36,271 bases of DNA from a virus (lineage: Duplodnaviria > Heunggongvirae > Uroviricota > Caudoviricetes), in the IMG/VR virus record IMGVR_UViG_2695420676_000012; one strand, written 5' to 3'. The position numbers and the translations under genes are program-made. Within the stretch, counting starts at the first letter, position 1, and each line of letters begins with the position of its first letter. Under the pieces are notes generated by a model. The model did not search any database. It saw only the letters and a program-made list of their open reading frames with translations, and had not been told where the DNA came from. This document shows, in pieces, positions 715-35,673 of the stretch.

Positions 715-980
715 ACTGGAGAATCAAACATGTTAGCTTTTATCTCATTCGTGGGAGGTAGTCTCACAACTATGATTAGTCTTTCTTATATTGTCGTTAG
801 TATGGGGTGAGCAATGAAACAATTTCATGATGGCATTTCATCCAAGACATTCAAGAAAGAATATAGCGGATTGTGTATTAACTGGATTGATTTGATTGGT
901 GCGGTTGTGTTTGGTCTGGTAATTAGCATCAATTTTTAACGATATAAATATATCGTAATTCATTCAAAGAGGATTCAATT

Positions 981-1322
981 ATGAAAAAGACTATCTACGC
1001 AATTATTGTTTCTGTGTGTGTTGGTGGCATCGGTGGATTTGTTTGTGGGTATGACTATTCCGATACTCAACATCAAGAGACTATCCGGTCAAATAAGGCC
1101 GAGATTAAGGATCTGAATCAGGAGATTAGCCAGTTAGAAAATGCTCTCTCACTCAAAGACAGTGAATATAGCGAGGTTTATGCAGATAAACAAAAATATT
1201 GGAAAGAGAAAGATAATCTCGTTGTTTACGGGATGAAATTGTGTAAGAGCATGAAGGACGAGCGCAGTTGTTTAATGGAACTTGCCCTTAAAGGTAACGT
1301 GACCATCGACTTCAAAGACTAA
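981..1322 (+). CDS. membrane-anchored coiled-coil protein (113 aa; N-terminal TM then coiled coil, Rz/i-spanin-like topology)
   Basis: Hydrophobic N-terminus 'IYAIIVSVCVGGIGGFV' followed by heptad-like charged region; SD 'AAAGAGGA' 7 nt before ATG; TATAAATA box at 943-950. Confidence 0.5.
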   Translation: MKKTIYAIIVSVCVGGIGGFVCGYDYSDTQHQETIRSNKAEIKDLNQEISQLENALSLKDSEYSEVYADKQKYWKEKDNLVVYGMKLCKSMKDERSCLMELALKGNVTIDFKD

Positions 1323-1351: not shown

Positions 1352-1597
1352 ATGAAAAAGATTATCGCTGGTATCGTTCTTGCTCTGGGTTTGGTTGGTG
1401 CTGCAAATGCCGAACAATATGTACAGGGTGATAGTGTCAAGCGTGCTGCCGTTGCACCTTCTTTAAATCAACTGTGTACTGAATTAGCACAGGTTGCCGG
1501 AGTTGGTGACGATGACGACTTTATTACTGCGTGTGTATGGAGTCATATCGAGGATATTAATAAACGTGATGCAAAACTAACTGGAAAGAAATATTAA
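1352..1597 (+). CDS. small secreted protein with Sec-type signal peptide (81 aa)
   Basis: N-terminus 'MKKIIAGIVLALGLVGAANA-EQ' looks like a cleavable signal peptide (no lipobox Cys); SD 'AAAGAGGA'; leader nearly identical to that of the preceding gene. Confidence 0.5.
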   Translation: MKKIIAGIVLALGLVGAANAEQYVQGDSVKRAAVAPSLNQLCTELAQVAGVGDDDDFITACVWSHIEDINKRDAKLTGKKY

Positions 1598-1613: not shown

Positions 1614-1653
1614 GCCCCTATCGTTATAATACGCGGTAGGGGCGTTTTTGTTT
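1614..1653 (+). terminator. terminator-like hairpin plus T-run
   Basis: 'gcccctA...Taggggc' inverted repeat followed by 'gtttttgttt'; overlaps the TTG-initiated extension of the recombinase ORF. Confidence 0.4.
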
Positions 1654-1662
1654 GGAAATGGT

Positions 1663-3342
1663 ATGAAAACTAAACTGTATTCGTATATTCGCTTCTCGTC
1701 TATGCGTCAGAATGATGGTTCGAGTTATGAACGACAAATCAGGATGGCGAGAGAGGTTGCGGCAAAGTATGACCTTGAACTGGTAAATGATTATCAGGAT
1801 CTGGGTGTATCTGCGTTTAAGGGTGCTAACTCCAAAACAGGGGCGCTATCTCGTTTCCTTGATGCAATAGGTAGATCCGTTCCTGTTGGTAGCTGGCTAT
1901 TCATCGAAAACTTGGACCGTTTATCCCGTGCCGATATTGTCAGTGCGCAGGAGTTATTCCTTTCAATCATCCGTAGGGGGATAACCATTGTTACTGGCAT
2001 GGATAACAAGATCTACTCGCTGGATACTGTTACCGCTAACCCGATGGACCTGATGTTCTCCATCCTTTTATTCATCCGTGGTAATGAGGAAAGCCAGACT
2101 AAGCGCAATCGTACTAACTCAAGCGCACTGATTAAGATTAAAGCCCATCAAGAAAATCCCCAGAATCCGGCAGTGGCAATCGAGGAAGTTGGAAAGAATA
2201 TGTGGTGGACTGATACCACTTCCGGTTATGTGTTGCCTCATCCTACATACTTCCCTGTTGTTCAGGAGATTGTGGAATTACGGAAGAATGGACGTTCAAC
2301 CGCCGAGATACTGGATCACCTTAACGAGACATATACACCGCCACCAGCGGTTAGTAATAAGAAGCATTCAAAATGGTCACGGGCAATGGTTGAAAGGTTG
2401 TTCCATACCCGCGCTTTGATTGGTATCAAGGAGGTCTCTGTCGATGGTGTTAACTATGAGTTAAAGGATTATTACCCTCGTGTTATTGATGATGCTACGT
2501 TCTATCACCTTAAGAAAAATATTGGTGCTAGAGCATGGAACTTTGGAGACAAGGAAGAAGTTAAACCGATCCCCCTGCTTAGTGGTATTGGCCTATTGAA
2601 ATGTGATCATTGCGGTTGCGCTATGGTTAAAGTGAAGGGAACGAACAAACGTTCTGACCAGTATCGTTATACATGTGATGCGACCCGTTCACGTAGACTT
2701 GATTGCGAGCATCCAAACTGGAGTTTTCGAGGTGATCAATTAGAGAAAGCTGTATTGCAATTGCTGGCTGATAAAATCTGGATTGCTGAGGACAAGGCTA
2801 ATCCGGTTCCGGCGTTGAAAGTACAGGTTGATGAAATATCACGCAAGATTGATAACCTGATTGCCCTTTCTGCTATGACAGGAGCAACGAAGGAGTTAGC
2901 CGATCAGATTACTACCCTCAATAGCGAGCGTGAAACACTCTACAATCAGATCAAGATGGCAGAAGAGGAAATGTATTCTGTGGACTCTCAAGGCTGGGAG
3001 AAGCTCGCAGAATTTGATTTAGAAGATGTTTATAACGAGGAACGACTAAAGGTCCGGTTTAAGATTAAGCAAGCTCTAAAGCGGATCGGGTGTAGCAGGA
3101 TTGACAGGAATAAAAACTTGTTTGTACTGGAATACATCGATGGAAAGACCCAGAGAGTTGTAATAGAAAATTCAAGAGGAACGAGGAAAGGACAAATCTT
3201 TGTCGATTTGAAAACTATCAATGATAGGCAGATTCTGGAGAGTAACGGGCTTGTTTTGCATCCATGTTTAGACATGCTGACAGATAAGAACTGGAAACCA
3301 GAAGAGGAAATACCAGGTCCATTACAGGAATTTGGAATTTAA
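1663..3342 (+). CDS. large serine recombinase (integrase/resolvase family)
   Basis: N-terminal resolvase catalytic motifs 'YIRFSSMRQ' and 'GVSAF...LFIENLDRLSR'; downstream Cys cluster 'CDHCGCAM...YRYTCD...LDCEH' (zinc ribbon) and coiled-coil segment; track ORF opens at 1648 with TTG, first ATG at 1663. Confidence 0.8.
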   Translation: MKTKLYSYIRFSSMRQNDGSSYERQIRMAREVAAKYDLELVNDYQDLGVSAFKGANSKTGALSRFLDAIGRSVPVGSWLFIENLDRLSRADIVSAQELFLSIIRRGITIVTGMDNKIYSLDTVTANPMDLMFSILLFIRGNEESQTKRNRTNSSALIKIKAHQENPQNPAVAIEEVGKNMWWTDTTSGYVLPHPTYFPVVQEIVELRKNGRSTAEILDHLNETYTPPPAVSNKKHSKWSRAMVERLFHTRALIGIKEVSVDGVNYELKDYYPRVIDDATFYHLKKNIGARAWNFGDKEEVKPIPLLSGIGLLKCDHCGCAMVKVKGTNKRSDQYRYTCDATRSRRLDCEHPNWSFRGDQLEKAVLQLLADKIWIAEDKANPVPALKVQVDEISRKIDNLIALSAMTGATKELADQITTLNSERETLYNQIKMAEEEMYSVDSQGWEKLAEFDLEDVYNEERLKVRFKIKQALKRIGCSRIDRNKNLFVLEYIDGKTQRVVIENSRGTRKGQIFVDLKTINDRQILESNGLVLHPCLDMLTDKNWKPEEEIPGPLQEFGI

Positions 3343-4460: not shown

Positions 4461-4832
4461 TTAATTATTGTAGTTTTGGAAACCAGTAAGATCGCAAAAT
4501 GAATCAGTGTCATGTGCTGGGGAACGATGTTCTGCTTCGTCAGAGAAAATGTTGGCTACCGGAGATTCCACTTTAACTTCCGGTGCTTCTTCAACATCTG
4601 ACTTAACTTCTTCGACCACTGGTTCAACTGCTGGAGATTCTTCTTTTGTTTCTTCAATGACGATCTCAGGTTCTTTCATTGCTTCAACCAGAGACGGATC
4701 AACTTCGTCGAATACAACTTTATCATCTGCGGTATATTTGTCTATAATGAAAAAATGGTCAGAAATATAGCTAACGTCGCCAGCATATTCTAACAAAAAA
4801 GCGCCTCTGGTGGGCGCTTTTGTTTTATCCAT
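4461..4832 (-). CDS. acidic hypothetical protein (E/V/P-rich); start uncertain
   Basis: Track ORF 4461-4862 starts with TTG and overlaps the peptidase gene and a hairpin; first in-frame ATG at 4832; codon usage matches neighbours better than the antisense S/T-rich ORF. Confidence 0.35.
   Translation of the reverse strand: MDKTKAPTRGAFLLEYAGDVSYISDHFFIIDKYTADDKVVFDEVDPSLVEAMKEPEIVIEETKEESPAVEPVVEEVKSDVEEAPEVKVESPVANIFSDEAEHRSPAHDTDSFCDLTGFQNYNN
4800..4827. terminator. bidirectional terminator-like hairpin
   Basis: 'agcgcc-tctggtg-ggcgct' flanked by A-run upstream and 'tttgtttt' downstream, at the 3' end of the peptidase gene. Confidence 0.45.
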
Positions 4833-5178
4833 TCCACCGTGATTTTTTTGATCTGGAATCAATATGCGTAAAGGTTTTATATTTTCCTAAGCCGTATTGA
4901 GTAGGATATTTCCCATCAAGATAAGCATGAACAATATCAGGAGAAATTCCTTTCACCGATATGTCAGCCGCGCGGCCTCGAACGTGATAGCTATTGGCTG
5001 CCCCGCCTACATTCTTGTTATGAGTCGGGCAACGGTTGCCACTGTTAATAATCACTGGTTTACCGAAGTGCTCTCGTACATCCTCAAGAATCACCAGTAA
5101 TTCAGCGTCGATTGTATCATAATCACATTTTCCGCATTTACATTTAAATTCCTTGCGAGAAAAATGCTTACTTAACAT
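4825..5178 (-). CDS. peptidase M15 family zinc peptidase (D-Ala-D-Ala carboxypeptidase-like), probable endolysin
   Basis: 'FSRKEFKCKCGKC...' then 'SGNRCPTHNKNVGGAANSYHVRGRAADI', the hallmark SG(Y/N)R..HN...S.H..G.A.D signature; SD 'AAGGGGGT'. Confidence 0.75.
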   Translation of the reverse strand: MLSKHFSRKEFKCKCGKCDYDTIDAELLVILEDVREHFGKPVIINSGNRCPTHNKNVGGAANSYHVRGRAADISVKGISPDIVHAYLDGKYPTQYGLGKYKTFTHIDSRSKKSRWNG

Positions 5179-5187
5179 ATTACCCCC

Positions 5188-5535
5188 TTAGATATATTGC
5201 ATAAGATAGCCGGTAAATCTAAGTCCCTTGATATAATAGTTAGTTGTCCCTACACACACCGCGCGTGTATCGCCAATACAATTGAAGTTGTAAGGATTAA
5301 CTACATCAATCTCCTGCCCTACACGAAAGCGATACTTAGGACGTTTAGCGAGTGTCGCAACACAAAACACTAGCCCGTTACCATCATCGCGGATCATCTG
5401 CTTGAATTGTTTATGTTGGACTCTCTTCGCCTCAAAATCATAGGTCATTGATTCTGGGCTAATGCCATTGATAAAAATACCGGAAAGCTGGTCGACCGGA
5501 TAAGTAGGAAATTCAGTGAAAATATTTTTAGCCAT
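5188..5535 (-). CDS. hypothetical protein (115 aa)
   Basis: ORF with SD 'GGGGGT' 6-7 nt before ATG; no recognisable motif. Confidence 0.5.
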   Translation of the reverse strand: MAKNIFTEFPTYPVDQLSGIFINGISPESMTYDFEAKRVQHKQFKQMIRDDGNGLVFCVATLAKRPKYRFRVGQEIDVVNPYNFNCIGDTRAVCVGTTNYYIKGLRFTGYLMQYI

Positions 5536-5573: not shown

Positions 5574-6257
5574 TTAAACGTATTTCATGCGCGATTTAAT
5601 GTGCTTATTGATGTTTTCAAGCATCATTGCTTCGTTGCTTTCCCACGATCCTAGCGTCGAATAACGAGTAGAAATTTTATCCGATTTAACGGCAACAATT
5701 CGCTTGCTCTGTTTCTGTATGCGTTTCTCTAAGCGACGTTTTGCCACCGCCGATCCATTCCTAGCGCGTTTGGTTCGGGATTTCTTAGGCTTGTACTTCT
5801 TCATGATAAAAGTCCCTTCCTTGTTCTCTACCTTGATGAAGTTGCCGTTTTCGAGGTTACGCATCATCTTACCGCCTTTGATGGCCTTAATGTTCCCGTG
5901 GGCGTCTAAGACCTTACCGTTGGCGATTGGAACTAGCTTATTGATTTTGCCCCCATCGAAATAGTGTTTCAGATAGTCGTCCTGACTGCCGATCTTCTTA
6001 TCCTTATCCCTTGCGCCCTTGATGAAGATTTGGTGTCTCGTCCCTGATCGGTTCTTGTAGTTGGTATTACCTACAGCTTGCTGAGTCCAGCGAGTAGGTC
6101 TATCAACATTCTTGTTAATCTTCTTCTGGAGTGCTCTGGAAGCAAAGATCGCCCCTTCCCCTATCGCCCTTTCGAATGTATCGGTTGCCTTTTCAGACCA
6201 TTGCCTCAACGCTTTCTTAGTCCTTAGAGCGTTTCGTTTATTGGTACTGGTTGCCAT
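5574..6257 (-). CDS. highly basic (K/R-rich) hypothetical protein, 227 aa
   Basis: ORF with SD 'AGGGGG'; start ATG overlaps the stop of the upstream small ORF (TAAcATG). Confidence 0.5.
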   Translation of the reverse strand: MATSTNKRNALRTKKALRQWSEKATDTFERAIGEGAIFASRALQKKINKNVDRPTRWTQQAVGNTNYKNRSGTRHQIFIKGARDKDKKIGSQDDYLKHYFDGGKINKLVPIANGKVLDAHGNIKAIKGGKMMRNLENGNFIKVENKEGTFIMKKYKPKKSRTKRARNGSAVAKRRLEKRIQKQSKRIVAVKSDKISTRYSTLGSWESNEAMMLENINKHIKSRMKYV

Positions 6258-6258
6258 G

Positions 6259-6429
6259 TTAGCCCCCTAATAACGAAAAGACCCCCGCCAGTGTCCTTAG
6301 CAATTGTTCATCCACGGTCATAGCCGGGAGTTCAAGCCCAAAGGACGTTAGCAGAGGTCTAATAGCTACGTTATAAGTGAGGGCGACAATCAAGAGATAA
6401 CCAAAATATTTCTTAAGTTTATTCTTCAT
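6259..6429 (-). CDS. small membrane protein (56 aa), not in the ORF track; holin-like size
   Basis: Manual translation 'MKNKLKKYFGYLLIVALTYNVAIRPLLTSFGLELPAMTVDEQLLRTLAGVFSLLGG'; SD 'AAAGGGGTG' upstream. Confidence 0.35.
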   Translation of the reverse strand: MKNKLKKYFGYLLIVALTYNVAIRPLLTSFGLELPAMTVDEQLLRTLAGVFSLLGG

Positions 6430-6447
6430 ATATTCACCCCTTTATTA

Positions 6448-6726
6448 TTATTTTTGTTTGAGTATGTCGAGAACTTGGTCAAATTTGGCGTCCATCGCAA
6501 CCACTTTCTTCTCTATACCGTGTAGTGTTTGTTCCATTTGGTAAACACGTTCAGCAATCTGAGTATGGTTATTCTGCATCGTCTCAAACTTCTGGTTTAA
6601 CAATGCGTCGCTGGATTCCAATTTCGACAATCTATTTTCTGTAGCTAATTGATTTCGGTGAAGTCTCCAAAGCCCACCACAAATTAAGGCGATAACACCG
6701 ATACCGCCATATATAATTTCAGTCAT
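6448..6726 (-). CDS. membrane-anchored coiled-coil protein (92 aa; i-spanin-like topology)
   Basis: N-terminal TM 'IIYGGIGVIALICGGLW' followed by coiled-coil-like region; SD 'GGGGG' before ATG. Confidence 0.5.
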   Translation of the reverse strand: MTEIIYGGIGVIALICGGLWRLHRNQLATENRLSKLESSDALLNQKFETMQNNHTQIAERVYQMEQTLHGIEKKVVAMDAKFDQVLDILKQK

Positions 6727-6771: not shown

Positions 6772-6814
6772 ATAAAAATAATCCCGCCTAACTCAAAAGA
6801 ATTAAGCGGGATTA
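6772..6814 (-). terminator. Rho-independent terminator after the J-like gene
   Basis: ~10-bp stem 'atcccgcCtaa / ttaagcgggat' followed on the minus strand by a T-run. Confidence 0.5.
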
Positions 6815-6831
6815 ATTATTAGAATTAAATT

Positions 6832-9800
6832 TTAAGAAACAGAAATACCAGTAGCGGCTTTCTTAGTTACCATTACCGTTAGATCGCTGATATATGCACT
6901 TGGGTTATAGTTGTTAACGCCCTTACAGTAAACTTCAAAAGTCATTGTTACTGCCCCGTGTCCGGCTGGCATGTCAATAACTCCACTGTACATACAGCCA
7001 GAAGTTGCAGTGCGATCATATAGAACACCACCATTTTTCTTAACGATTAGTCGGCAAGTATCCCAATGATCGCTACTTTCGCCACGACGAACAGACCCGT
7101 TATGATGAATCGCTGGAATCACTATTTGGCGATCGAATGGATGATCATCTTCGACCCTTACAGTGATTGCACCATCAGGCCAGTTTGGTTGGCGATGCGG
7201 GAAACTCCTACCAACCACTTTCACGAAGTCACCACGCACCTGATTAGCATCAAGCATACCCAAAATGCGGCAACTTGAATTAATCGTTACGTTGTTCATT
7301 TCGCCGGAATCAGCCACCAAATGACCACGAATATTAGCGTGTCTAAAATGACAAGTGCCATCTTTGCCGATATACCATCCATCGTTACCATTCCAGTTAT
7401 AAGACTGGATATAGTTACCAATTTTAGCATTATCGATAGAGCCATCAATGATATGACCTGTTCCGATCTGTGCGTGTTGGATGTGAGCGCCGTTAATCTG
7501 GGCTGTGCCGATCTTAGCCGTGGTGATACTAGCATCACTAATCTGGGCTGTGCCAATTGCAGCATTACGAATCATCGCATTATCAAGATAAACTTTGTTA
7601 TCTTCGATGCCAAACGGACAAACTTCTGATCCGTCTTGTGGAGCTACCGCGATTTTATCAGCCGTAAAGATGATTCTTGTCGGTTCTGCCGGATCATTGG
7701 TTGCGCTCATATGAATACCAGCCACGCGACCATCTGCATTAACTGCCAGATTATATTTGCTGTTAATGGTTCCCTTCAAAGCATCGATTTTTACATCTGC
7801 TTCCTGATTCACACCAGCAATCTTGCCATCCATTTCTACCCGAACTTGATCAATCTTACTTGCGCTTGCTGCCTCACTGGTAGCAATTGCTTGTTTCAGG
7901 GTAGTAGCAGATGCGCTAACTTCTTTGGTGATATCGCCTTTCAGTTCAGCTTTAACCTGATCAATCTTAGTTGCGCTGGCTTGCTCACTGGTAGCAATCA
8001 GACTCTTGAGAGTATCGGCTGAGGCTTGGACCGTCTGCCCTGTCTCGGTAGTAATCTGTTTATGCATTGCATCAATCTTAGCATCGGCATTAGCGCCAGC
8101 TTGAGCAATAGCATCCGCGATGGTTTCATCTAAGCGATCTTGTAAACCAATCAGGTCTTCCAGTGCTTCTTTGTCCTGATCGTCCCAGCTAATGGTAGAT
8201 TTCATTTGCATGAAATACGGTTCAGACCAAACAGCATCATCCATACCGAAAATATCATAGTGAGCACCACGGATATAATAATCACCGTCAGCCAAATCAA
8301 AGGAAGTATGACTAACGCTATTGGTAGTCACTGCCCTTGCATCGGAGAAAGTATTATCGGTTGCATACTGGATGATTGACCCTGCATAGTCATGTTCTAC
8401 GTCATCCGCCCAGCTAACAAACGCAGTATTAAAGCCACCACGCGCACTAAAACCTTTCATCGGCTTATGTTGTGGGTTGATAGCCACTAAACGCGCTGGG
8501 GCGCTCTCTGAGTTGTTATAGCCCTTGACTGATACTTCTACCGTCAATTCACGGGAAAGGCCGTTAAACTGGTTCATATCAAGCGTATAAGTCCATGATT
8601 CAGGATCGCGGGTACGGTACTGAATAGACTTACCAGCCTTGTTAGTTACCTTGATAATGTATGCTTCAAACAGGTCACTAAACTTGTTAGCTTCACCGTT
8701 GATCATCACATCTAATTGTTGCTGATTTTCCCATTCGATAATCAGATCATTGCCTTCGAAAGTACCAGGCGTGCTACCCTGATTTTTGATTCGAATAACC
8801 GGAGTCGGCAATTCATAGGTAACAGTAGGATTCTGGTTAACCAGTTCCACCCATTCGGAACGAGCAATAATACCGAAAGCACAAACGCGGTAATCGTAGG
8901 AGCGATCTTTTGCCAGTGCATTGATATTGAAAATTTGCTGTGAAGTCTGCCCCAGCTTAATCCAGTTAGGCGATCCACTTACACGGTAATCAATCTGGAA
9001 ACCGTAGCGGTTAAAATCTTCCGGTGCATCCCATGTCAAAGTAACGTTTTTACCGTGGATTGTCTCACCAGTTGCCTTAATTCTGAAATTAGTCGGTTTC
9101 TGTACTGTCATTGAATCCGGTAAACCAGTAGGTCTATTGTCTGGAGTTGCCGCATAGTTCAGGTCAGTATAAACCTGAGAATTATATTCTGTGGCGGTGA
9201 TAGTCATCATCCCAGCAATACCAGAATCAATAGAACGATCAATTGCAGTAATGCGCCAAAGTGAATTATTCAGTTTCAATTCATCATAGGTTACGCTGAT
9301 AACGTCCCATACTTCGGCGGTGAATGCGTCAGTAGTCATAAAGCTGATAACCTGAGTGATACGAGATTTATTTCGTTCTACACTCGCAAGTTTATCAATC
9401 TGGGCTTTAGACTTAACAAAACGATATTCAATATCTTTAGCGATAATTCGACCATCTTGACGAATAGTAGCATCGTTTTCAGCATCAGCCGGATAACGTA
9501 GCATTTGCTCTGAATAGTCGATTGATGGTTCTTGATACATCGCGTTAATGGTATTGAAATAACCGTTAGTGCCACCTGTTTTCAGTGATACCTTACCCAT
9601 CATGATATTGTCTTCATTGAAGGTATGCTTAACAATATCAGGAGCATCCAGTTTCAGCGTAATACGTCCAAAGGATTCGAACATCACCCCGCCGAAAGTC
9701 TGCATAAGGCTAGTTAAGTTCTCTTTAAAGCTGGCGTTCGGATCACATGCACCGTTGGAATGTAAATCCATCTGGCGTACTTGTTTACGCACTTTCAGGA

Positions 9801-10578
9801 ATGAATCAACGTTAATATTTTCAATCGGTACACTAAGACCATACTTTGTATTTGTCAGATAATGGAAAATCTGGTCCACGCCGTTAGTGCTAGCCTCAAT
9901 AGCATTGGTTTCAAGGTTACGAATCTTTAAGCCCATAACATCGACCGCTACCTGGCTATTAGGCTGGAGAATATCAACACCAGCAGCCAAAGATTTGTCA
10001 TCACGACGTAAAACAATACACATGGTCGCAATGCCGTTACCCTGATACCGATCATCCCAATCAGCGCCCAAATGATGTTTAGCTAAATCCAATGCAGTGT
10101 TAGGATTTTTACCCGTGCGAAACTCGACTTCTAAAACTTTGCGGTATTCGTCTTTAATGTTTCCTTTATCGAGAATGCCATCACGAATTGTCATATTCTG
10201 GCTAATGAGAACGTTTTTATTATCGATGTGCAGTGCTTTAAAGTGATCGATCTCACCTTCGGCAATAGCAAAAATTTGTACCAGCTTGTTATTTTCACGC
10301 TGTGAAATTGCCTTGTAAACGCAGATTGCACCAGTTCGGGTAGTACCGAAAAGAACGGGTAAAACTGTCTTAGGATCGTTTGATGTTCCTAGTGTCACCG
10401 CATTATCTGGGCTTTGTACTTTAGGTGTTTTTGGTGCGCCTACAGTGGAAGCGATCAAGGTCATTGCACCAGCAGCCATACCGATAGCGACTGCGGTCAT
10501 AACAGAAAATGTTGCAGCAGCAGCCATCCCAGCAGACGCACCAGCAATAACCGCGCCTACCAATATTTCAAATCCCAT
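6832..10578 (-). CDS. central tail fibre / host-specificity protein (lambda gpJ-like), 1248 aa
   Basis: Size and position after a K-like gene; C-terminal ~110 aa ('DDHPFDRQIV...VIDMPAG...TGISVS') resemble my recollection of the lambda J receptor-binding end; SD 'GGGGGTG'. Confidence 0.8.
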   Translation of the reverse strand: MGFEILVGAVIAGASAGMAAAATFSVMTAVAIGMAAGAMTLIASTVGAPKTPKVQSPDNAVTLGTSNDPKTVLPVLFGTTRTGAICVYKAISQRENNKLVQIFAIAEGEIDHFKALHIDNKNVLISQNMTIRDGILDKGNIKDEYRKVLEVEFRTGKNPNTALDLAKHHLGADWDDRYQGNGIATMCIVLRRDDKSLAAGVDILQPNSQVAVDVMGLKIRNLETNAIEASTNGVDQIFHYLTNTKYGLSVPIENINVDSFLKVRKQVRQMDLHSNGACDPNASFKENLTSLMQTFGGVMFESFGRITLKLDAPDIVKHTFNEDNIMMGKVSLKTGGTNGYFNTINAMYQEPSIDYSEQMLRYPADAENDATIRQDGRIIAKDIEYRFVKSKAQIDKLASVERNKSRITQVISFMTTDAFTAEVWDVISVTYDELKLNNSLWRITAIDRSIDSGIAGMMTITATEYNSQVYTDLNYAATPDNRPTGLPDSMTVQKPTNFRIKATGETIHGKNVTLTWDAPEDFNRYGFQIDYRVSGSPNWIKLGQTSQQIFNINALAKDRSYDYRVCAFGIIARSEWVELVNQNPTVTYELPTPVIRIKNQGSTPGTFEGNDLIIEWENQQQLDVMINGEANKFSDLFEAYIIKVTNKAGKSIQYRTRDPESWTYTLDMNQFNGLSRELTVEVSVKGYNNSESAPARLVAINPQHKPMKGFSARGGFNTAFVSWADDVEHDYAGSIIQYATDNTFSDARAVTTNSVSHTSFDLADGDYYIRGAHYDIFGMDDAVWSEPYFMQMKSTISWDDQDKEALEDLIGLQDRLDETIADAIAQAGANADAKIDAMHKQITTETGQTVQASADTLKSLIATSEQASATKIDQVKAELKGDITKEVSASATTLKQAIATSEAASASKIDQVRVEMDGKIAGVNQEADVKIDALKGTINSKYNLAVNADGRVAGIHMSATNDPAEPTRIIFTADKIAVAPQDGSEVCPFGIEDNKVYLDNAMIRNAAIGTAQISDASITTAKIGTAQINGAHIQHAQIGTGHIIDGSIDNAKIGNYIQSYNWNGNDGWYIGKDGTCHFRHANIRGHLVADSGEMNNVTINSSCRILGMLDANQVRGDFVKVVGRSFPHRQPNWPDGAITVRVEDDHPFDRQIVIPAIHHNGSVRRGESSDHWDTCRLIVKKNGGVLYDRTATSGCMYSGVIDMPAGHGAVTMTFEVYCKGVNNYNPSAYISDLTVMVTKKAATGISVS

Positions 10579-15981: not shown

Positions 15982-16035
15982 TATTCTTTTCCTTCTATTT
16001 TAAACAATAGGGCACATACCCGTAATTCTATTTAT

Positions 16036-16338
16036 TTAGCGGTTGCTCAAACGTCTATAACGAAGATGAGCGATCCCCCTATTTGTGCTAACGGTAATTA
16101 CCGCCCCTTGCGGTGCAATACAAGAATGAATCTGTCCCCAATCATGACCCTTATGGCTTCCAGAAACACACAAACCATGAATAAGCAATTCAGAGTCACC
16201 ACCGCCACCACCGGAAGAATGAGCACAGAATGAAATAGTCCCGAAAGCGTCGGCTGTCCAACCGTTAGGAATATCAAACCATCCTTGATTTGCTTTACCC
16301 GCCCTATTCCCCAAAGCGCCATCTACCCAAAATGCCAT
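16036..16338 (-). CDS. small glycine-rich protein, paralog 3 of 3 (100 aa)
   Basis: Shares 'W....FDIPNGW', Gly-run and 'G..WG...V..G..V' with the two upstream paralogs; start overlaps the upstream stop (TAATG). Confidence 0.55.
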   Translation of the reverse strand: MAFWVDGALGNRAGKANQGWFDIPNGWTADAFGTISFCAHSSGGGGGDSELLIHGLCVSGSHKGHDWGQIHSCIAPQGAVITVSTNRGIAHLRYRRLSNR

Positions 16339-16643
16339 TAGTGCATTCTCCTGAATTTAAAATAATGCAAACTACCTTTACCCAATGTAAAGCTAACGGT
16401 AGCACCAGCGCCAACTAAAGAACTAGCGCCCCAACTCCCAGCATCACCAGCATGATGACCTGATTCAATCAATCCATTTACAGCCAATTCAGAATCAAGA
16501 TCACCAGCACCGTTAATGGCTTCCATATGAGCAAAAACAATTCCGCATGAATCAGTAACCCAGCCGTTGGGGATATCAAAATATCCACCATTAGCCCAAA
16601 TACTAATAGCGTTTGACATTCTTTGATTTATCCATCCAGCCAT
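16338..16643 (-). CDS. small glycine-rich protein, paralog 2 of 3 (101 aa)
   Basis: Same conserved motifs (FDIPNGW, ...TVSFTLG...YFKF) as paralog 1. Confidence 0.55.
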   Translation of the reverse strand: MAGWINQRMSNAISIWANGGYFDIPNGWVTDSCGIVFAHMEAINGAGDLDSELAVNGLIESGHHAGDAGSWGASSLVGAGATVSFTLGKGSLHYFKFRRMH

Positions 16644-16645
16644 AA

Positions 16646-16942
16646 TTAAAACTCCATGAATTTAAAATATTCAACACCACCTTCACCCCCTAAACCAAAG
16701 GAGACGGTGCAGCCAGCAGGAACAAACGAATTTATAGTAGATCCCCAATTGGTCCCACCACGACGACGAGCAACGGTCAAACCATCTACGTTAATATGTG
16801 CATCAGACCACCCACCACCAGCATTATGACGCATTACAGCGACACCAGCACGAGCAGTACCATAGCCGTTAGGAATATCAAATACATGCCATTTTAAAGC
16901 ATCGATTTTAGTATTAATTTCACTACTTACCCAATATCCCAT
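16646..16942 (-). CDS. small glycine-rich protein, paralog 1 of 3 (98 aa)
   Basis: Motifs 'FDIPNGY', 'GGGW', 'TVSFGLGGEGGVEYFKF'; SD 'AAGGA' before ATG. Confidence 0.55.
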   Translation of the reverse strand: MGYWVSSEINTKIDALKWHVFDIPNGYGTARAGVAVMRHNAGGGWSDAHINVDGLTVARRRGGTNWGSTINSFVPAGCTVSFGLGGEGGVEYFKFMEF

Positions 16943-16980
16943 ATAAGAATCCTTAGCGGAGATTTCTCCCCGCTTTCCAA

Positions 16981-19900
16981 TTACCCTAATTTAGCTTCAA
17001 TTGCAGCAAGACGTTCACGAAGAAGTTTATTTTCTTCGCTCATTTCTTGGACCGCTTTAATTAAAAGCGCGTTCACTGCGGAGTTTGAAATTGTTAAAAT
17101 TTCTTCTGGGTTATCAAGACCACCAATTTTTGCGGTTTTAACAGCTTCCGGTAATACCTCTTGTAAATCCTGTGCGATAATACCAATCTCATGACCTATA
17201 ACTTCTCGGTCATTAAGAGATTTAACTTTATCGTAGGTTTTAACTTTGAGTTTATTTACCTTATCCACCGCATTTTCTTCGTAATCTTCAACATTAATTT
17301 TCAGACGACCATCGGAACGAATATAAACATCGTTAAAGTTACCATTACCAGGAGAATAGAAAGTACCATCATGATGAAATTCAAACACCGCTTGAGGATG
17401 ACCAGCCGCTGGCGATGCCTCCGCAGATCCAACGCGAATAATTGCTTGCCCCCAATTTTGAGGAACACGACGCATACCAAAATCGACGGCAGTTGTATAC
17501 CCTTGATTGGTGATTAAACTTCTTCCTTTAATAATTGGATAATAGCTATCTGGTCCTACATAACCATGATCGACAAATATCGGCGCTTCTAATCCCCATT
17601 GATCGCCCCAACCTCCAGATTGGCTAGCAGTCCAACGTTCACCATGAACATAGAATCGAACGTTATTGACATGAGTCATTTCGACACCTTTTGGACTTAG
17701 CGCGATATCACCCGCGTTTGTAATATTGATAGCAGCATTAGTAGCATAGCTATAGAACGCTAATCCATTATCAGCACCACCTTTACCGATATACCAGTTG
17801 TTATTATCAGCACAAGTACCCAGCAAATATATAGACGAATCACCCGTTTCGGCATTCATGACGATTGCGTCAGAACCACGATTAACTTTAAGTTTCCCGA
17901 AGAAGGTGTTTTTAATGGTATTATCACCCAATCGTTCAAATTCTGCGAAAAATCCTTTTGAGTCACGAAGACTTAAAACGTTATTTCGACCTGTATTGCT
18001 TGCCCCCCAATGGACGAGTTCCATATAGTCCATAGATTGACGAGAACCAGCTTTAAAGAAAAGGTTGTCTTCAAGACGGGTACTACCATCAATTCCGAGA
18101 TGCAAACAACGAGCGGTTGCAGTACCACCTAAATACAATCCACCGTCCGCAAAATCATAGCTGAATGGTCTGCGATTATTCCAACTACCAAAAGAATCTT
18201 TTAAATCGGTAGTAAGAATATGGAAGCTAGAACCATCATTGCGTAAAATCAAACCATAGTTACCACCTTTGACAGCCAAACGAGCATTTTCAGATAATGC
18301 AACTTCGCTATTCATTACAATTTTCTGGCCTTTACCGCCAGTAATATGCAATTCACCATCTTCAATCAGGTTTATAGAGTTTTGACCGTTATCGTTCCAC
18401 CAAATAAAATCTTTGGTTGTTCCATCACCAAAACCAAACCAACCATTACGAACATCTTGTCCAGTGCGATAATCCATGAAATTAAAATGACTTGATTCGT
18501 TTGGTCCTCGACGAATATCAATACCAGAATTTCCAGTAACACCGCCATCCAATGTTAATTTCTTGACATGTAACCCGGATGTTGCTGTCAGCAATAATTC
18601 CTGATTTGTATCTTCGTATCCAGTAGCAAGACGATATGCGTTATCATCAACTGTCTCATGCCAGATAGTGGCAGGAGCAGAACTACGGAAGCGACGCAAC
18701 ATTTTCTTAGCATTTGTTTGCTGTTCGTTCAAATGCTCAATGTCGTATTGGCCTTGATGGTTTCCAGCAAAATTTAACGTTCCACGGTTGCTAAAGTTAT
18801 TGAACGATGAAATGTTAAGAGCATCAAAAATTTCATCTGCAACAGGTTTTTCACCACCCAGATATTCAGGAGTATCCAACAGGTTTAAAGAAACACCACC
18901 GGAAGAAACTTGATATTCTGCTAAAACAAATCCTGTATGTGCACCGTAGTAAGCGTAAAGATCGTAATTGTCGCCATCGGTTGGAATAGCGCAAAAATGT
19001 TGTTCATGATGCCAAATAGTATAATACGCATTGAATACAACACCTTTCGGGCTATTGTTGCCGCATCGAATCACCAATTCGATAATATTGGCTTGTCCAT
19101 TATGTCCTACGTTATAACCGTTACCACCAACCAAACGGATCTTAGCCGTGCGACCGTGTTGTTGTGGCATTGTCAAAGTGCCTAGTTTAAACCAACCACC
19201 CTCGATACCAAAATTAAGCGTCTTCTGGAACAGTCGGTCAATTTCTGCTTTCGAATATGCGCCAATTTCAGCCGGAGTAGGTTTATCACCTTCATGATAC
19301 ATGCGGTGAGAATATGCCAAATGTCCCAATTCATCATAGCCGTATGTTCTTACCGTATGAACCGGATTAGACCCATAAGTGAACTCAAAACCACGAGCAT
19401 GATTAACGCCGGATGGGTGCGGAACATGCAAGATCATTGCAATATGACCCGCCAGGTCATTCATGCGAAATGCACCAAAGTAATCAAGATTAAGAGCACT
19501 CGGATCATCAAAAGGGTTTGCGGTCTTAGACAGCAAATAGCCATCAGTGCAAGTGTTTACGTGCTTTTTGATGTACTTGCCATCACTTGATCCATCGGCT
19601 GCATCAATACGGCTTTCTAAACGTGCAAGTTCGGAATCAGTGTAAGACTTGTTATTGTCAACTTTGCTATGAATTGCTGAATTTTTGGCTTCAACATCAC
19701 GGGTTAATGCTGCGACGTTATCCGCTGCCTCTTGCTTATTGGCTGCAATCACACCAGTAAGGTTATTGTAGGTGTCAGTTAACTGATTTTCCGCATAGGC
19801 GTGATTTGCTGCGATAGTGCGGTCAGTTTCTGCCTTAATCAAATCAACTTTGTCATTGATTGCTTTGTGATTGCTTACGATGGTTGCATCGGTACGGGAT

Positions 19901-26338: not shown

Positions 26339-28246
26339 TTAGAACGATGTTACCCAGCTACGGCCTCTATTTGGGCGTCTGGCGATGTTTTGACGTTGCG
26401 GTCGTGTGATTGGCTTAGTTTCTTCGATTTGCTCGTCAGATTGCGATTCAGGAGCTTTTACGGGTTCTTCTTTAACGCTGTTTAAGCTGTCTTTCATTGC
26501 AATGAGTTTATCCCATGACATTTTTGAAAGGACGTAGCGAGAAGCAGCATAGCTATAAACCAGACAGTCGAGAGCCTCGTTTCGGGTACTACCTGGATTT
26601 TTCACCCAACGAACACCAGTAGTAGTACGCTTGATGGATTCACTCAAAAGCTGATCGAGATAATCATCAGGAACGGTTTCTGATATTTCTAAGCCAATAT
26701 GAGGATTATCTTTCAGGTTTCTAACCAGCATTTCACGAACAGCGGATTTACCAACGTTAACGCCCAGCATAAGCAATTCATGACCACCTGTGCGGGTAGG
26801 TTTAACCGGAATCACTGGAGCATTACCAGATGAACTACCTTTAATAGCGTGTAGGTTCTTCCACTTACCACAAATACGGTATCCGGCTTGAGTGAATCGA
26901 CCGTTTGATGTATCGAGGAAGCTGGCGAGCATTGGCACACGTTCACCATTAACGTTATAGAATTTGGTTTTCTTGAAGTTAACCAGACGATCCCATACAG
27001 GTGATTCGTATCGTTCACAGTTATGATCGTAAAAGCTACGGTGATCCAGAATGTAAACCTTATCTTTCGCTACACCTAAGATGGTAGATTCTGCGCGATC
27101 CAATTGCTGGTCAATTCCTGAGCACAAGAAAATCACGTCATCAGGGATATTCTCGATAGAAACATCTGTTTTGAGTTGTTCCAGTTCATTTGCTTCTACT
27201 GCCGTGTCCTGATCATCGTATACCTTGCCTAACACGGTGTTATAAAATGATTGTAAATCAAAGGATTGCCACGCATGACTAAAATCAACCACACAAGCGC
27301 GGATCGTGCTGAAAGGTGAATACAGACGGCTAATCCAGAATCCTGCTACTTCACTTTCACGGGTTGCTCTCCACTCGCCTTGCGCTACTGCCCTGATTCG
27401 TTCCCCTTCTGTCCATGCGTTCTTACAGTGGGGGCAAATATAACGAGCGGTATCAGGATCGGGTAAGTTCTTACCATCGATGTTACGCCATTCAAATTGA
27501 ACGTTTTCCCACTCGATCACCTGGTGTTCCCCGCAATGAGGACACGGAACAAAAAACATACGCATATCGCTTGATAACCATTGCTGGTTAATGCTTCCGA
27601 GCTTACTGGTCGGGGTACTGGATACGACTAATCGGCCTTCATCGCCAAAGGTAGTTAAACGGTTAGCAGCCAGTGCCACCGGATCACCTTCTTCTGAGGC
27701 TGTAGCAGCATCGATTTCGTCTAGTAGTCCGACCTTTGCGGTCTTACCACGTAGGGTCGATGGACTGGTTAGCGATACCATGTACAGGAAGTGATTCGTT
27801 TTTAGCTGTAGCTGGTTATTGTTGTTAACCGCATTGCGATCATTCTTGTCTGTAACCACGTCTTTTAATGCATCACATGCTTCGATAGACGGTCGGATCT
27901 TACCAGCGAGATATTGAGACATTTCTTTAGCGGTTGATTGTCCGATAATCATATTGCATGGATCGTTAGCCATCTGGTTAAACAGGATGCCGTTCAAGAT
28001 GGTAGTCTTTCCGATCTGCGCACTGGTCATCAGAACATACTTTTTCTTGTTCTCAAGGAAAGGAGCATCAATCATACCTTTCTGGAATGACAGCAATTTA
28101 ACTTTATCCCCAGCTTGAGGACCATCTACCAGCACCATATTAGCTTCGCACCATTCAGAAGGAAGGAGTTTAGGCGGTGGCGTAATATATTTGGCTGCAT
28201 TTCTGAGAATCTTTTTTAATTTGGCCTTATTAGAAATTAGTTTCAT
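26339..28246 (-). CDS. terminase large subunit, lambda gpA family, 635 aa
   Basis: Walker-A-like 'AQIGKTT'; 'PCPHCGEHQ' and 'YICPHCK' zinc-finger-like motifs; 'GIDQQLDR'; '[14 protein letters not shown]'; order and spacing match gpA as I recall it. Confidence 0.9.
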
Positions 28247-34695: not shown

Positions 34696-34869
34696 TTATT
34701 TAGTATCCTTTTTACAGCAACTAAAAAGAATAAACAAAAAGAAGCATACCCAGCCGTAAGGCGTACCGATTAGAAATTTGAAAAACACCACCAGCGATAT
34801 AAAAATCAATTTAATGCCAGCGACGATAGTCAAAAACAGCAGAGTAGCAAAGTAGACAAAAAGATCCAT
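34696..34869 (-). CDS. small hydrophobic membrane protein (57 aa), not in the ORF track
   Basis: Manual translation 'MDLFVYFATLLFLTIVAGIKLIFISLVVFFKFLIGTPYGWVCFFLFILFSCCKKDTK'; SD 'AGAGGA' 7 nt before ATG. Confidence 0.4.
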   Translation of the reverse strand: MDLFVYFATLLFLTIVAGIKLIFISLVVFFKFLIGTPYGWVCFFLFILFSCCKKDTK

Positions 34870-34922
34870 AGATAATCCTCTTTGAAAACGACCATCATCT
34901 ATAGTTCAATTCATCGATTTAA

Positions 34923-35024
34923 TTAATGATACTTGAAAGCGTTACACACAGCAGAAATGCCAATATGTGCCAGTGAAAATACGATAGTTAGCCCTACAGC
35001 CAGATAAATTAAAAATTCAACCAT
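34923..35024 (-). CDS. small hydrophobic peptide (33 aa), not in the ORF track
   Basis: Manual translation 'MVEFLIYLAVGLTIVFSLAHIGISAVCNAFKYH'; SD 'GAGGA' before ATG. Confidence 0.3.
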   Translation of the reverse strand: MVEFLIYLAVGLTIVFSLAHIGISAVCNAFKYH

Positions 35025-35121: not shown

Positions 35122-35673
35122 TTAAGACACATCAAATTCATCGTCTTCTTCTGGTTCTTGTTCCGGTTCATCGATTAATGGTAATTCTTCTTCCTCGTCA
35201 TCGCCTAAATCCGCATTTTCGAACAAGTCCCCTACTTCATTTAAACGACGCTCGATGATCTCCCTTAGCTTATTCTTCAATGTTTTCTGATCAGTGGCAG
35301 ATTCGAGAATTTCTAAAGCGTCGATTGTGGCGATCTGCAAAATAGTCTGTTTCACCTTTCCGCAATATTCCGCTAGCTCCTGCTCAACATACCCGACCGG
35401 AATCAGGAGATTCATTGCTTCCTGGTTCTCTCGTTCGATAGCGTCAGCCTCGCCTCGCGCCTTGCGTAGTTTCTCTTGTTGGATTTGGGCTTGTACATCC
35501 ACTTCCCGCAAAGGATTGATTATGTTGGTGAGTATCCACTTAATGGCTAGATCGCGAGGACAACGGCGGGTATTAGAATTGAATGGCAAACCGCGTTCTT
35601 TCCATTTAGTGACAGCCGGAAGTGAATAACCATACATTTTCGATAATTCTGTTAGTGTAATTTCTGCGGACAC
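35122..35673 (-). CDS. Nu1-like small terminase subunit candidate (winged-HTH N-terminus, acidic C-terminus), 183 aa
   Basis: N-terminal 'LTELSKMYGYSLPAVTKWKERGLPF...LAIKWIL' resembles my recollection of lambda Nu1 'KKQLADIFGASIRTIQNWQEQGMPV...VIKWY'; size matches Nu1 (~181 aa); GTG start with SD 'GGAGGA'. Confidence 0.45.
   Translation of the reverse strand: MSAEITLTELSKMYGYSLPAVTKWKERGLPFNSNTRRCPRDLAIKWILTNIINPLREVDVQAQIQQEKLRKARGEADAIERENQEAMNLLIPVGYVEQELAEYCGKVKQTILQIATIDALEILESATDQKTLKNKLREIIERRLNEVGDLFENADLGDDEEEELPLIDEPEQEPEEDDEFDVS

What the first reader, a model, noticed from the sequence alone, without database searches (positions are those of the whole stretch)
6259..6726. Two small membrane proteins (one missing from the ORF track) beside the M15 peptidase: dispersed lysis-like genes
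A 92-aa type-II membrane coiled-coil protein and an unlisted 56-aa membrane ORF (6259-6429, good SD) sit between the J-like gene and the M15 peptidase (4825-5178). No canonical holin-endolysin-spanin cassette is seen and no lipobox Cys for an o-spanin. A second TM/coiled-coil plus secreted-protein pair with near-identical 5' leaders lies at 981-1597.
Basis: inference. Interest (0 to 1): 0.35.

Follow-up and report, generated by a model that had tools for sequence, protein, structure and literature searches.

The report
Probable holin pair beside prophage endolysin
Two small membrane-protein genes in an E. coli prophage are real and conserved, and most likely make the membrane holes that let the phage's cell-wall enzyme out at lysis; this is an ordinary job done by an unnamed protein family, and it has not been tested.

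Summary
The window is a roughly 37-kb siphovirus prophage inserted in E. coli ycdX. On the minus strand, directly after the J-like tail-tip gene, a strong hairpin terminator is followed by five tightly packed genes with GGGG(G)-type ribosome-binding sites: P92 (6448-6726), P56 (6259-6429), P227 (5574-6257), P115 (5188-5535) and a 117-aa soluble Peptidase_M15_3 (4825-5178). A second terminator closes the unit.

The block keeps its order in relatives from Salmonella, Providencia, Edwardsiella, Proteus, Rahnella and Enterobacter, in metagenome contigs and in one GenBank phage record. Only the last gene changes: M15_3, M15_4, T4-type lysozyme, or absent.

P92 is predicted N-out/C-in with a cytoplasmic coiled coil, not type II. 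P56 is predicted N-in/C-out. The window has no lipoprotein ORF, so no canonical spanin.

Best reading (about 0.5): P92 and/or P56 supply holin or holin-partner function for the soluble endolysin. P227 (PHROG "minor tail protein") and P115 are probably virion accessories.

The pair at 981-1597 sits in an integrase-side accessory-gene hot-spot and is not conserved.

All four families are tiny orphans and function is untested. Modest interest.

The parts
6832..10578 (-). J-like tail tip protein (1248 aa), the last recognisable tail gene upstream of the unit
   Evidence: ORF. RefSeq calls it 'phage tail tip protein' in L001. Homologues carry PF09327 Phage_Tail_Tip.
6779..6814 (-). Intrinsic-terminator-like hairpin (16 bp stem plus T-run) between J and P92. 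A hairpin at this position is conserved in all relatives.
   Evidence: RNAfold of the J-P92 intergenic region in 9 loci. In L008, L010 and L013 the 3' arm contains the SD of the P92 homologue.
6448..6726 (-). P92: bitopic membrane protein with a Gly-rich TM segment (residues 4-20), then the conserved W-[KR]-x-H motif, then a coiled coil of about 70 aa. Predicted N-out/C-in. Candidate holin or holin partner.
   Evidence: PHROG hits. Pfam gives only generic coiled-coil hits.
6259..6429 (-). P56: small membrane protein with a basic N-terminus, a TM segment carrying an invariant Y-N, and an acidic or amphipathic Gly/Ala-rich C-tail. Predicted N-in/C-out. Candidate holin or partner.
   Evidence: phrog_2024 (unknown function) is hit by 4 of 10 members.
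5574..6257 (-). P227: very basic protein (pI 10.7, 56 K+R), remote member of phrog_1924 'minor tail protein'. Probably a virion or morphogenesis protein.
   Evidence: AF2 model pLDDT 69 with no fold match. The Ralstonia phage homologue lies next to terS/terL, away from that phage's lysis cassette.
5188..5535 (-). P115: beta-rich orphan protein, lying immediately upstream of the muralytic gene wherever that gene is present. Weak fold resemblance to tail tube, Dit and hub domains.
   Evidence: pLDDT 86; Foldseek best E 0.005-0.3, not significant.
4825..5178 (-). Soluble Peptidase_M15_3 endolysin (117 aa). Putative Zn ligands H65, D72 and H105, plus a CxCxxC...C cluster. No signal or anchor sequence.
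4797..4821 (.). Bidirectional terminator hairpin closing the five-gene unit (a T-run follows on the minus strand as well)
   Evidence: and the sequence.
981..1322 (+). P113: N-in/C-out TM plus coiled-coil protein in the attL-integrase accessory-gene region. Not conserved in Salmonella, Providencia, Proteus or Edwardsiella relatives.
   Evidence: phrog_739 Rz-like spanin, E = 0.0024.
1352..1597 (+). P81: secreted protein with an SPI-type signal (…GAANA/EQ) and no lipobox. Its leader is nearly identical to that of P113.

Best explanation
P92 and P56 are two small inner-membrane proteins of opposite predicted orientation. They are encoded at the head of a terminator-bounded sub-operon at the very end of the late (structural) transcription unit of a temperate siphovirus, and that sub-operon ends with a soluble endolysin.

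The most likely mechanism has four steps:
1. Late in infection a reduced amount of read-through transcription passes the J-proximal terminator.
2. P92 and P56 accumulate in the inner membrane. P92 has its Gly-rich TM helix in the membrane and a cytoplasmic coiled coil that would drive oligomerisation or timing. P56 is N-in with a periplasmic amphipathic tail.
3. One of them, or both together, forms the membrane lesion (holin function, with the other as co-holin or regulator).
4. The cytoplasmic M15 peptidase then reaches and cuts the peptidoglycan.

P227 and P115, although embedded in the same unit, are more likely minor virion or tail accessory proteins.

The gene structure, conservation, predicted topology and endolysin identity are shown by the data. 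The holin role and the division of labour between P92 and P56 are inferred.
For: 1. The genes are real. Orthologues at 24-70% identity occur in eight lineages at the same position, and their divergence parallels that of J and Dit.
2. The operon structure is clear. There are five ORFs with gaps of 1-38 nt (some overlap in relatives), each with a GGGG(G)-type SD, and terminators at both ends.
3. A holin is needed. The M15 enzyme, the M15_4 enzymes and the T4-e-like lysozymes at the end of the unit have no signal or SAR segment.
4. The terminal enzyme is replaced by non-homologous muralytic types while the upstream genes stay, as expected for an endolysin slot in a lysis cassette.
5. P92 and P56 are the only membrane proteins conserved with that slot. 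The other small membrane ORFs in the window (34696-35024) are replaced by a different 94-aa ORF in a 95%-identical prophage.
6. The architecture is holin-like: small size, one TM segment, a Gly-rich helix, a charged cytoplasmic C-terminal domain, and a consistent charge bias across the family.
7. Four of nine P92-family members hit phrog_1296 'holin'. The best is the Edwardsiella orthologue at E = 5.8e-6, aligned in register (residues 6-51 against profile 6-51 of 93).
8. The Edwardsiella relative carries a canonical i-spanin/o-spanin pair in addition to its P92 and P56 orthologues, so P92/P56 are not simply the spanins.
9. There is precedent. The PBSX and SPbeta late operons place two small holin-like proteins (XhlA/XhlB, BhlA/BhlB) and a soluble protein of unknown role (XepA) right after the tail genes and before the lysin (PMC6834076).
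Against: - There is no experimental evidence.
- The window's own P92 does not reach phrog_1296. Its best hits are phrog_12015 (unknown function, 4.2e-5) and only weak, coiled-coil-driven matches, including an Rz-like spanin (0.036).
- No Pfam or NCBIfam holin family matches.
- Two non-membrane genes separate P92/P56 from the endolysin. One of them belongs to a 'minor tail protein' PHROG, so the unit is not a clean lysis cassette.
- An Enterobacter relative keeps P92-P56-P227-P115 but has no muralytic gene after them.
- Topology rests on the positive-inside rule, not on a dedicated predictor or on an experiment.
- The region after the tail-tip gene is also a classic site for superinfection-exclusion membrane proteins.
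Confidence: 0.5

Rival explanations
1. P92 and P56 are prophage- or late-expressed inner-membrane proteins that protect the cell. They would act in superinfection exclusion or as an injection block, like HK97 gp15 or the cor/lom-type genes that sit after tail-tip genes. On this reading they are unrelated to lysis and the adjacent endolysin is coincidental.
For: They lie directly after the J-like gene and behind a terminator, which is the usual position for such accessory genes (established knowledge). They are small bitopic membrane proteins. The Enterobacter relative keeps them without an adjacent endolysin.
Against: - They are not mobile or patchy like accessory ('moron') genes. They are present in every relative examined and co-diverge with J and Dit down to about 25-30% identity.
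- No sigma-70-like promoter was found upstream on the coding strand.
- Their SDs match those of the rest of the late sub-operon.
- The lineage's true accessory-gene hot-spot is on the integrase side and is highly variable.
- This reading would leave the phage with no holin candidate for a soluble endolysin.
Confidence: 0.17
2. P92, P56, P227 and P115 act together as one virion- or tail-associated module. Examples would be a membrane-anchored assembly platform or chaperones for the tail tip or the acquired T-even-type fibre, or proteins delivered at infection. The muralytic enzyme may then be virion-associated or simply the next gene.
For: - The four genes always travel together, even when the enzyme is absent or replaced.
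- Eight of ten P227-family members hit phrog_1924 'minor tail protein'.
- The weak fold matches of P115 are mostly tail tube, Dit and hub proteins.
- The unit follows the tail genes.
Against: - The fold matches are not significant (E >= 0.005).
- In the Ralstonia phage, a P227 homologue sits next to terS/terL with no P92-, P56- or P115-like gene among the ORFs of at least 50 aa listed for its two ends. A canonical lysis cassette lies elsewhere in that record, so P227 can be separated from P92/P56.
- A conserved terminator separates the unit from the structural genes.
- The 117-aa M15 enzyme is about 55-63% identical to free-standing genes annotated as endolysin in SP6-like phages.
- Homing-endonuclease and acetyltransferase genes are inserted inside the unit in some relatives, so the genes are not obligatorily coupled.
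Confidence: 0.15
3. P92 is a short i-spanin-like protein. With P56 as a non-lipoprotein partner, it disrupts the outer membrane in place of the missing Rz/Rz1-type spanins.
For: The window has no lipoprotein ORF, so no canonical o-spanin or u-spanin. Five of nine P92-family members give weak hits to phrog_739 'Rz-like spanin' (best 0.0037). The N-terminal TM segment plus coiled coil is the i-spanin layout.
Against: - The charge bias in 13 of 13 members predicts that the coiled coil is cytoplasmic.
- P56 has no Cys in the window protein and no lipobox in any aligned homologue.
- The Edwardsiella relative has a bona fide spanin pair (an o-spanin with PF26831 and a lipobox) as well as its P92/P56 orthologues.
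- The PHROG hits are weak and largely coiled-coil-driven.
- A helix of about 70 residues is short for spanning the periplasm without an outer-membrane partner (inference).
Confidence: 0.08

Closest known systems
PBSX XhlA/XhlB and SPbeta BhlA/BhlB holin-like pairs of Bacillus subtilis prophages
   Same: Two small membrane proteins are encoded side by side right after the tail genes, in the late operon and upstream of the lysin. One of each pair combines a single TM segment with a coiled-coil or charged domain (own knowledge). An extra soluble protein of unknown role (XepA/YomS) sits in or near the cassette (PMC6834076).
   Different: No detectable sequence similarity: no XhlA or BhlA Pfam family appears among the hits at E <= 0.1. 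The host here is Gram-negative. In P92 the TM segment is N-terminal, whereas in XhlA it is C-terminal (own knowledge). Two non-membrane genes lie between the membrane pair and the lysin.
Lambda S105/S107 and phage 21 S21 (class I/II holin-antiholin systems)
   Same: Small inner-membrane proteins that gate release or activation of an endolysin. They have a charged cytoplasmic C-terminus, and helix packing involves Gly-rich faces (established knowledge).
   Different: Those systems have 3 or 2 TM segments in one gene with dual starts. Here there are two separate one-TM (or one-plus) genes and no dual-start motif that adds charge. There is no homology.
T4 holin T (class III, one TM segment)
   Same: A single TM segment and use with a soluble lysozyme. 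The Rahnella and DCP80 relatives carry a T4-e-like lysozyme.
   Different: T is N-in/C-out with a large periplasmic domain (established knowledge). P92 is predicted N-out/C-in with a cytoplasmic coiled coil. No similarity was detected.
Two-component spanins (lambda Rz/Rz1, T4 PseT.3/PseT.2)
   Same: P92 and P113 have the N-terminal TM plus coiled-coil outline of i-spanins and give weak phrog_739 hits.
   Different: There is no lipoprotein partner. P92's predicted orientation is the opposite one. A true T4-type spanin pair coexists with P92/P56 orthologues in Edwardsiella.
Endolysin-annotated genes of SP6/K1-5/K1E-like phages (Peptidase_M15_3)
   Same: The 4825-5178 product is about 55-63% identical over its full length. 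It belongs to the same Pfam family, with the H-D-H metal site and a Cys cluster.
   Different: The surrounding lysis genes of those podoviruses are unrelated to P92, P56, P227 or P115.

Membership tests
Holin (functional class) | Small protein with at least one TM segment and a charged, hydrophilic C-terminus | tested here: met
   P92 has a TM segment at 4-20 and a charged C-terminal domain. P56 has a TM segment at about 8-28. These features are necessary but not specific.
Holin (functional class) | Encoded with the endolysin in the late lysis unit | tested here: met
   It lies in the same terminator-bounded five-gene unit as the M15 enzyme. Synteny is kept in eight lineages with three enzyme types. 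However, it is separated from the enzyme by two other genes, and one relative lacks the enzyme.
Holin (functional class) | Forms a timed, lethal lesion in the inner membrane that releases or activates the endolysin | not testable with these tools
   Requires expression and complementation experiments.
Curated holin sequence families (Pfam, NCBIfam) | Significant match to a holin profile | tested here: not met
   Pfam gives only generic coiled-coil families below their cut-offs for all nine P92-family members. NCBIfam gives nothing relevant. P56 has no Pfam or NCBIfam hit.
PHROG phrog_1296 'holin' | Profile match | tested here: inconclusive
   Four of nine family members match. The best is the Edwardsiella orthologue at 5.8e-6, in register over TM segment plus flank. 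The window protein itself does not match at E <= 0.05.
Two-component spanin | The i-spanin is N-in/C-out with a periplasmic coiled coil | tested here: not met
   For P92 the charge bias predicts N-out/C-in in 13 of 13 members. This is a prediction only. P113 does fit the N-in/C-out pattern (its sequence: KK before the TM segment, an acidic stretch after it).
Two-component spanin | The o-spanin is a lipoprotein with a lipobox Cys, encoded within, overlapping or next to the i-spanin gene | tested here: not met
   A scan of every start codon in all six frames found no credible lipobox ORF. P56 has no Cys. P81 has an SPI-type site and no lipobox.
Unimolecular spanin (T1 gp11 type) | N-terminal lipobox plus a C-terminal TM segment | tested here: not met
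   No lipobox ORF in the window.
Peptidase_M15_3 endolysin (4825-5178) | Pfam PF08291 above the gathering score, and the metal-binding H...D...H residues | tested here: met
   98.3 bits against 23.2, covering profile positions 1-108 of 108. H65, D72 and H105 are read from the sequence. phrog_894 'endolysin' scores 1.4e-45.
Peptidase_M15_3 endolysin (4825-5178) | Peptidoglycan-degrading activity and a requirement for lysis | not testable with these tools
   Needs a zymogram or turbidity assay and a knockout.

The most novel reading that the evidence does not exclude
P92, P56, P227 and P115 together form a previously undescribed four-component envelope-breaching module. It would work with interchangeable muralytic enzymes and, in the E. 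coli and Salmonella lineages that lack any lipoprotein spanin, would also take over outer-membrane disruption. For example, the extremely cationic P227 could act on the outer membrane once released.
Probability: 0.07. Interest if true: 0.7.

Novelty: new member of a known kind. Interest (0 to 1): 0.3.

Why it matters
If P92 and/or P56 are holins, they add a new sequence family. Its layout is unusual for Gram-negative phages: an N-out single-pass protein with a long cytoplasmic coiled coil, paired with a 56-aa N-in protein.

They would also give a lysis function to a prophage lineage that is widespread in Salmonella and present in about 1% of complete E. coli genomes. At present all five genes are 'hypothetical' or generically named.

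The lineage also lacks a recognisable spanin in E. coli and Salmonella, while an Edwardsiella relative has one. That makes it a convenient natural comparison for how outer-membrane disruption is achieved or dispensed with.

None of this changes current concepts of phage lysis. It fills an annotation gap.

Tried and rejected
- tblastn of P92+P56+P227+P115 against 50,697 GenBank phage records found no match at E <= 1. The Edwardsiella P92 orthologue gave only chance hits. P113+P81 gave no match.
- phmmer of the four proteins against 1.84 billion representative proteins found 28 hits in all, every one from the same prophage lineage and none with a useful name.
- A profile search with the P92 family added only a few more unnamed relatives.
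- Pfam, NCBIfam and PDB sequence searches gave nothing for P92, P56, P227 or P115.
- AlphaFold models plus Foldseek: P227 (pLDDT 69) had no match. P115 (pLDDT 86) had only non-significant tail-tube/Dit/hub-like matches.
- The search for related loci with the P227 and P115 alignments failed because no stretch was conserved enough.
- I compared P113/P81 with the Edwardsiella spanin pair and found no similarity, so I rejected the idea that they are diverged spanins.
- I looked for a shared late-promoter motif upstream of P92. The 16-mer occurs once only, and no sigma-70-like site lies on the coding strand.
- I checked whether SP6-like phages, which have the closest endolysins, have P92-like neighbours. 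They do not.
- I considered the small membrane ORFs at 34696-35024 as alternative holins. I rejected them as core lysis genes because a 95%-identical prophage has a different ORF there.

Full report
**Context.** The window matches, at about 95% identity and near full length, a chromosomal element found in 62 of 5,426 complete E. coli genomes. In strain UTME-9 this element splits ycdX, and it carries a large serine recombinase, which in the window lies at 1648-3342. It is a complete siphovirus-type prophage. On the minus strand it encodes terL, portal, a 666-aa capsid protein, a fibre, tail tube, tape measure, Dit and a J-like tip protein. GenBank phages share no DNA similarity with the finding region apart from one small fragment. 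The capsid protein has only distant relatives there, 43% identity at best.

**The observation.** On the minus strand the J-like gene ends at 6832. It is followed by a 16-bp-stem hairpin with a T-run (6814-6779) and then by five ORFs:
- P92 (6726-6448)
- P56 (6429-6259)
- P227 (6257-5574)
- P115 (5535-5188)
- a 117-aa protein (5178-4825)

The gaps between them are 1-38 nt. Each is preceded by a GGGG(G)-type SD. The unit is closed by a hairpin at 4797-4821 that has T-runs in both directions. RefSeq annotates all five genes in the UTME-9 copy, including the 56-aa one. 'Missing from the ORF track' therefore reflects only a length cut-off.

P92 has one hydrophobic segment (residues 4-20). Its remaining 68 residues keep a single heptad register with 75% hydrophobic a/d positions. 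P56 has a lysine-rich N-terminus, one hydrophobic segment and a Gly/Ala/Ser-rich C-terminal stretch. The last gene is a Peptidase_M15_3 (98.3 bits against a cut-off of 23.2). It hits phrog_894 'endolysin' at 1.4e-45 and is about 55-63% identical to the endolysin-annotated genes of SP6/K1-5-like phages. It carries the H65/D72/H105 metal site and has no hydrophobic segment.

**Are the small ORFs genes?** Yes.
- Word-seeded HMMER searches of 5.8 billion proteins found P92 and P56 homologues in E. coli and Salmonella, plus a P92 homologue in Providencia.
- An exhaustive phmmer scan of 1.84 billion representatives, using the four unknown proteins joined together, found only 28 hits. These fall into four small families with parallel depth. 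Their members come from Edwardsiella, Proteus, Rahnella, Shigella and Salmonella, and none carries a name.
- I fetched the genomic context for seven further lineages. All have the order J, hairpin, P92-like, P56-like, P227-like, P115-like.
- Identity of the four proteins to the window falls in step with that of J and Dit, from 76-78% for J and Dit in Providencia to 33-44% in the most distant loci. They are therefore vertically inherited core genes, not mobile accessory genes.
- Invariant residues in P92 are G17, W20, E30, R32, E37 and E65. In P56 they are Y19, N20, P35 and G49.

**What the comparison shows about the unit.** Only the last gene varies:
- Peptidase_M15_3 in the window, Salmonella, Providencia, Edwardsiella and Proteus.
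- Peptidase_M15_4 in four genome or metagenome contigs.
- A T4-e-like Phage_lysozyme in Rahnella and in GenBank record PQ671644 ('Escherichia phage DCP80').
- Nothing in an Enterobacter hormaechei prophage, where the P115 homologue is followed directly by the recombinase gene.

Replacement of one small soluble muralytic enzyme by unrelated ones at a fixed position is what is seen in endolysin slots of lysis cassettes (established knowledge). None of these enzymes has a signal or SAR segment, so a holin is required.

A GC-rich hairpin followed by Ts lies between J and the P92 homologue in the nine loci folded, although its sequence differs between them. In three distant loci its 3' arm contains the SD of the P92 homologue. 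This suggests that expression of the unit is held below that of the structural genes (inference).

**Topology.** In all 13 P92-family members examined, no K or R precedes the TM segment and 10 of 13 have an acidic residue there. Two to five K/R follow within 15 residues, including the conserved W-[KR]-x-H motif. By the positive-inside rule this gives N-out/C-in, with the coiled coil in the cytoplasm. P56-family members have 2-6 K/R before the TM segment and a net acidic tail after it, which gives N-in/C-out. These are predictions from sequence, not measurements.

**Similarity to known families.**
- Pfam and NCBIfam give nothing beyond generic coiled-coil matches.
- Against PHROGs, four of nine P92-family members hit phrog_1296 'holin'. 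The best is the Edwardsiella orthologue at 5.8e-6, aligned 6-51 to profile 6-51 of 93.
- Five of nine hit phrog_739 'Rz-like spanin' weakly (best 0.0037). Several hit families of unknown function.
- The window's own P92 hits phrog_12015 (unknown function, 4.2e-5) best.
- P56 members hit only phrog_2024, of unknown function.
- Eight of ten P227-family members hit phrog_1924 'minor tail protein' (best 9.8e-6).
- In a Ralstonia phage record, a P227 homologue sits immediately upstream of terS/terL, while a canonical cassette of endolysin, holin and spanins lies elsewhere. P227 is therefore not tied to lysis.
- The P115 model is confident (pLDDT 86). It finds only non-significant matches, most of them tail tube, Dit or hub proteins.
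- The P227 model (pLDDT 69) finds nothing.

**Spanins and the second pair.** A scan of every possible start in six frames found no credible lipobox ORF, so the window has neither an o-spanin nor a u-spanin. The Edwardsiella relative does have a textbook pair: a 108-aa TM plus coiled-coil protein overlapping by 4 nt an 83-aa lipoprotein that matches PF26831 Phage_T4_Spanin. This pair lies downstream of its recombinase gene and is present in addition to its P92 and P56 orthologues. That argues against P92/P56 being the spanins.

The window's P113/P81 pair (981-1597) has near-identical leaders. P113 has the N-in/C-out layout and a weak Rz-like hit (0.0024). However, P81 has an SPI-type signal and no lipobox. 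Neither protein resembles the Edwardsiella pair, and neither has any phage homologue. The attL-integrase interval they occupy holds unrelated envelope genes in relatives: an OmpW-like protein, a YadA-like adhesin and assorted lipoproteins. I read them as lysogenic-conversion-type accessory genes of unknown function, not as part of a dispersed lysis system.

**Interpretation.** The best-supported reading is that P92 and/or P56 provide the holin function for the soluble endolysin at the end of the same unit. The other protein would act as co-holin or regulator. P227 and P115 would be minor virion or morphogenesis proteins that happen to be encoded between them.

This layout follows the Bacillus prophage pattern, where two small holin-like proteins and a soluble protein of unknown role follow the tail genes and precede the lysin (PMC6834076). 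The resemblance is one of architecture; no homology was detected.

I put this reading at about 0.5. The main rivals are:
- a protective or exclusion role (0.17);
- a four-gene virion-associated module (0.15);
- a non-canonical spanin-like role (0.08).

The remainder is 'something else'. Nothing here is experimentally tested.

**Verdict.** The finding is a correct observation of real genes. Its interpretation is plausible but incomplete, and it is wrong in two details: the topology of P92 and the relevance of the second pair. Holins are notoriously diverse, and new sequence families are routine. I therefore rate this as a new member of a known kind, of modest interest.

Noticed in passing
window 4478-4733 and 16020-19528; L017 10924-12624: DNA shared with virulent T-even phages. 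A 256-bp piece of the inh (prohead-protease inhibitor) gene is 98% identical to that of RB49-like Krischvirus phages. The fibre region is 83-97% identical to long-tail-fibre distal subunit genes of the same phages. Salmonella relatives carry UvsW- and UvsY-like genes in the same cargo slot.
   Followed up: partly
L014 (GenBank PQ671644, 'Escherichia phage DCP80') 1-26300: A 141-kb record classified as a T4-like Gaprivervirus begins with about 26 kb of a siphovirus related to this prophage. That stretch runs from terL through J, the P92-, P56-, P227- and P115-like genes and a lysozyme to a terS-like gene, with no integrase. T4-type genes (motA, rIIA) follow. It looks like a chimeric assembly or an unusual recombinant.
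   Followed up: no
window 34696-34869 (-) and 34923-35024 (-); L001 46866-47150: Two small, very hydrophobic ORFs (57 and 33 aa, both with GAGGA SDs) lie just downstream of the terS-like gene. A 95%-identical prophage has a different 94-aa, roughly 3-TM ORF at this spot, so it is a variable membrane-protein slot of unknown function.
   Followed up: partly
window 964-980, 1335-1351, 34870-34888: Three unrelated small envelope ORFs (P113, P81 and the 57-aa ORF) share the leader CAAAGAGGATT, placed 5-6 nt before the ATG.
   Followed up: no
L008 6905-6959, L010 7505-7555, L013 7955-8003: In three distant relatives, the terminator-like hairpin after the tail-tip gene includes the SD of the P92 homologue in its 3' arm. 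This could couple termination with translational occlusion.
   Followed up: partly
L003 11763-12337 (-): The Edwardsiella tarda relative encodes a canonical overlapping i-spanin/o-spanin pair (108 aa plus an 83-aa lipoprotein, PF26831). It lies downstream of the recombinase gene and converges on the endolysin gene with only 12 nt between the stop codons. The E. coli window has no equivalent.
   Followed up: partly
L012/L013 9055-9482: The Enterobacter hormaechei relative keeps the P92-, P56-, P227- and P115-like genes but has no muralytic gene before the recombinase. The P115 homologue there was not called by the source's gene finder.
   Followed up: partly
L007 6090-6554 and 7307-7915; L014 22959-23426: An Endonuclease VII (HNH-type) gene is inserted between the P92 and P56 homologues in both Rahnella and DCP80. 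In Rahnella an acetyltransferase on the opposite strand lies between the P227 and P115 homologues.
   Followed up: no
window 35122-35673 (-) versus 26339-28246 (-): The terS-like gene (phrog_57, 1e-14) lies about 7 kb from terL, separated by divergently transcribed regulatory genes. In DCP80 the homologue directly follows the lysozyme region.
   Followed up: no
window 814-939 (+): A 41-aa ORF with a GGGG SD and a C-terminal hydrophobic segment lies just upstream of P113. It is not annotated in the RefSeq relative.
   Followed up: no
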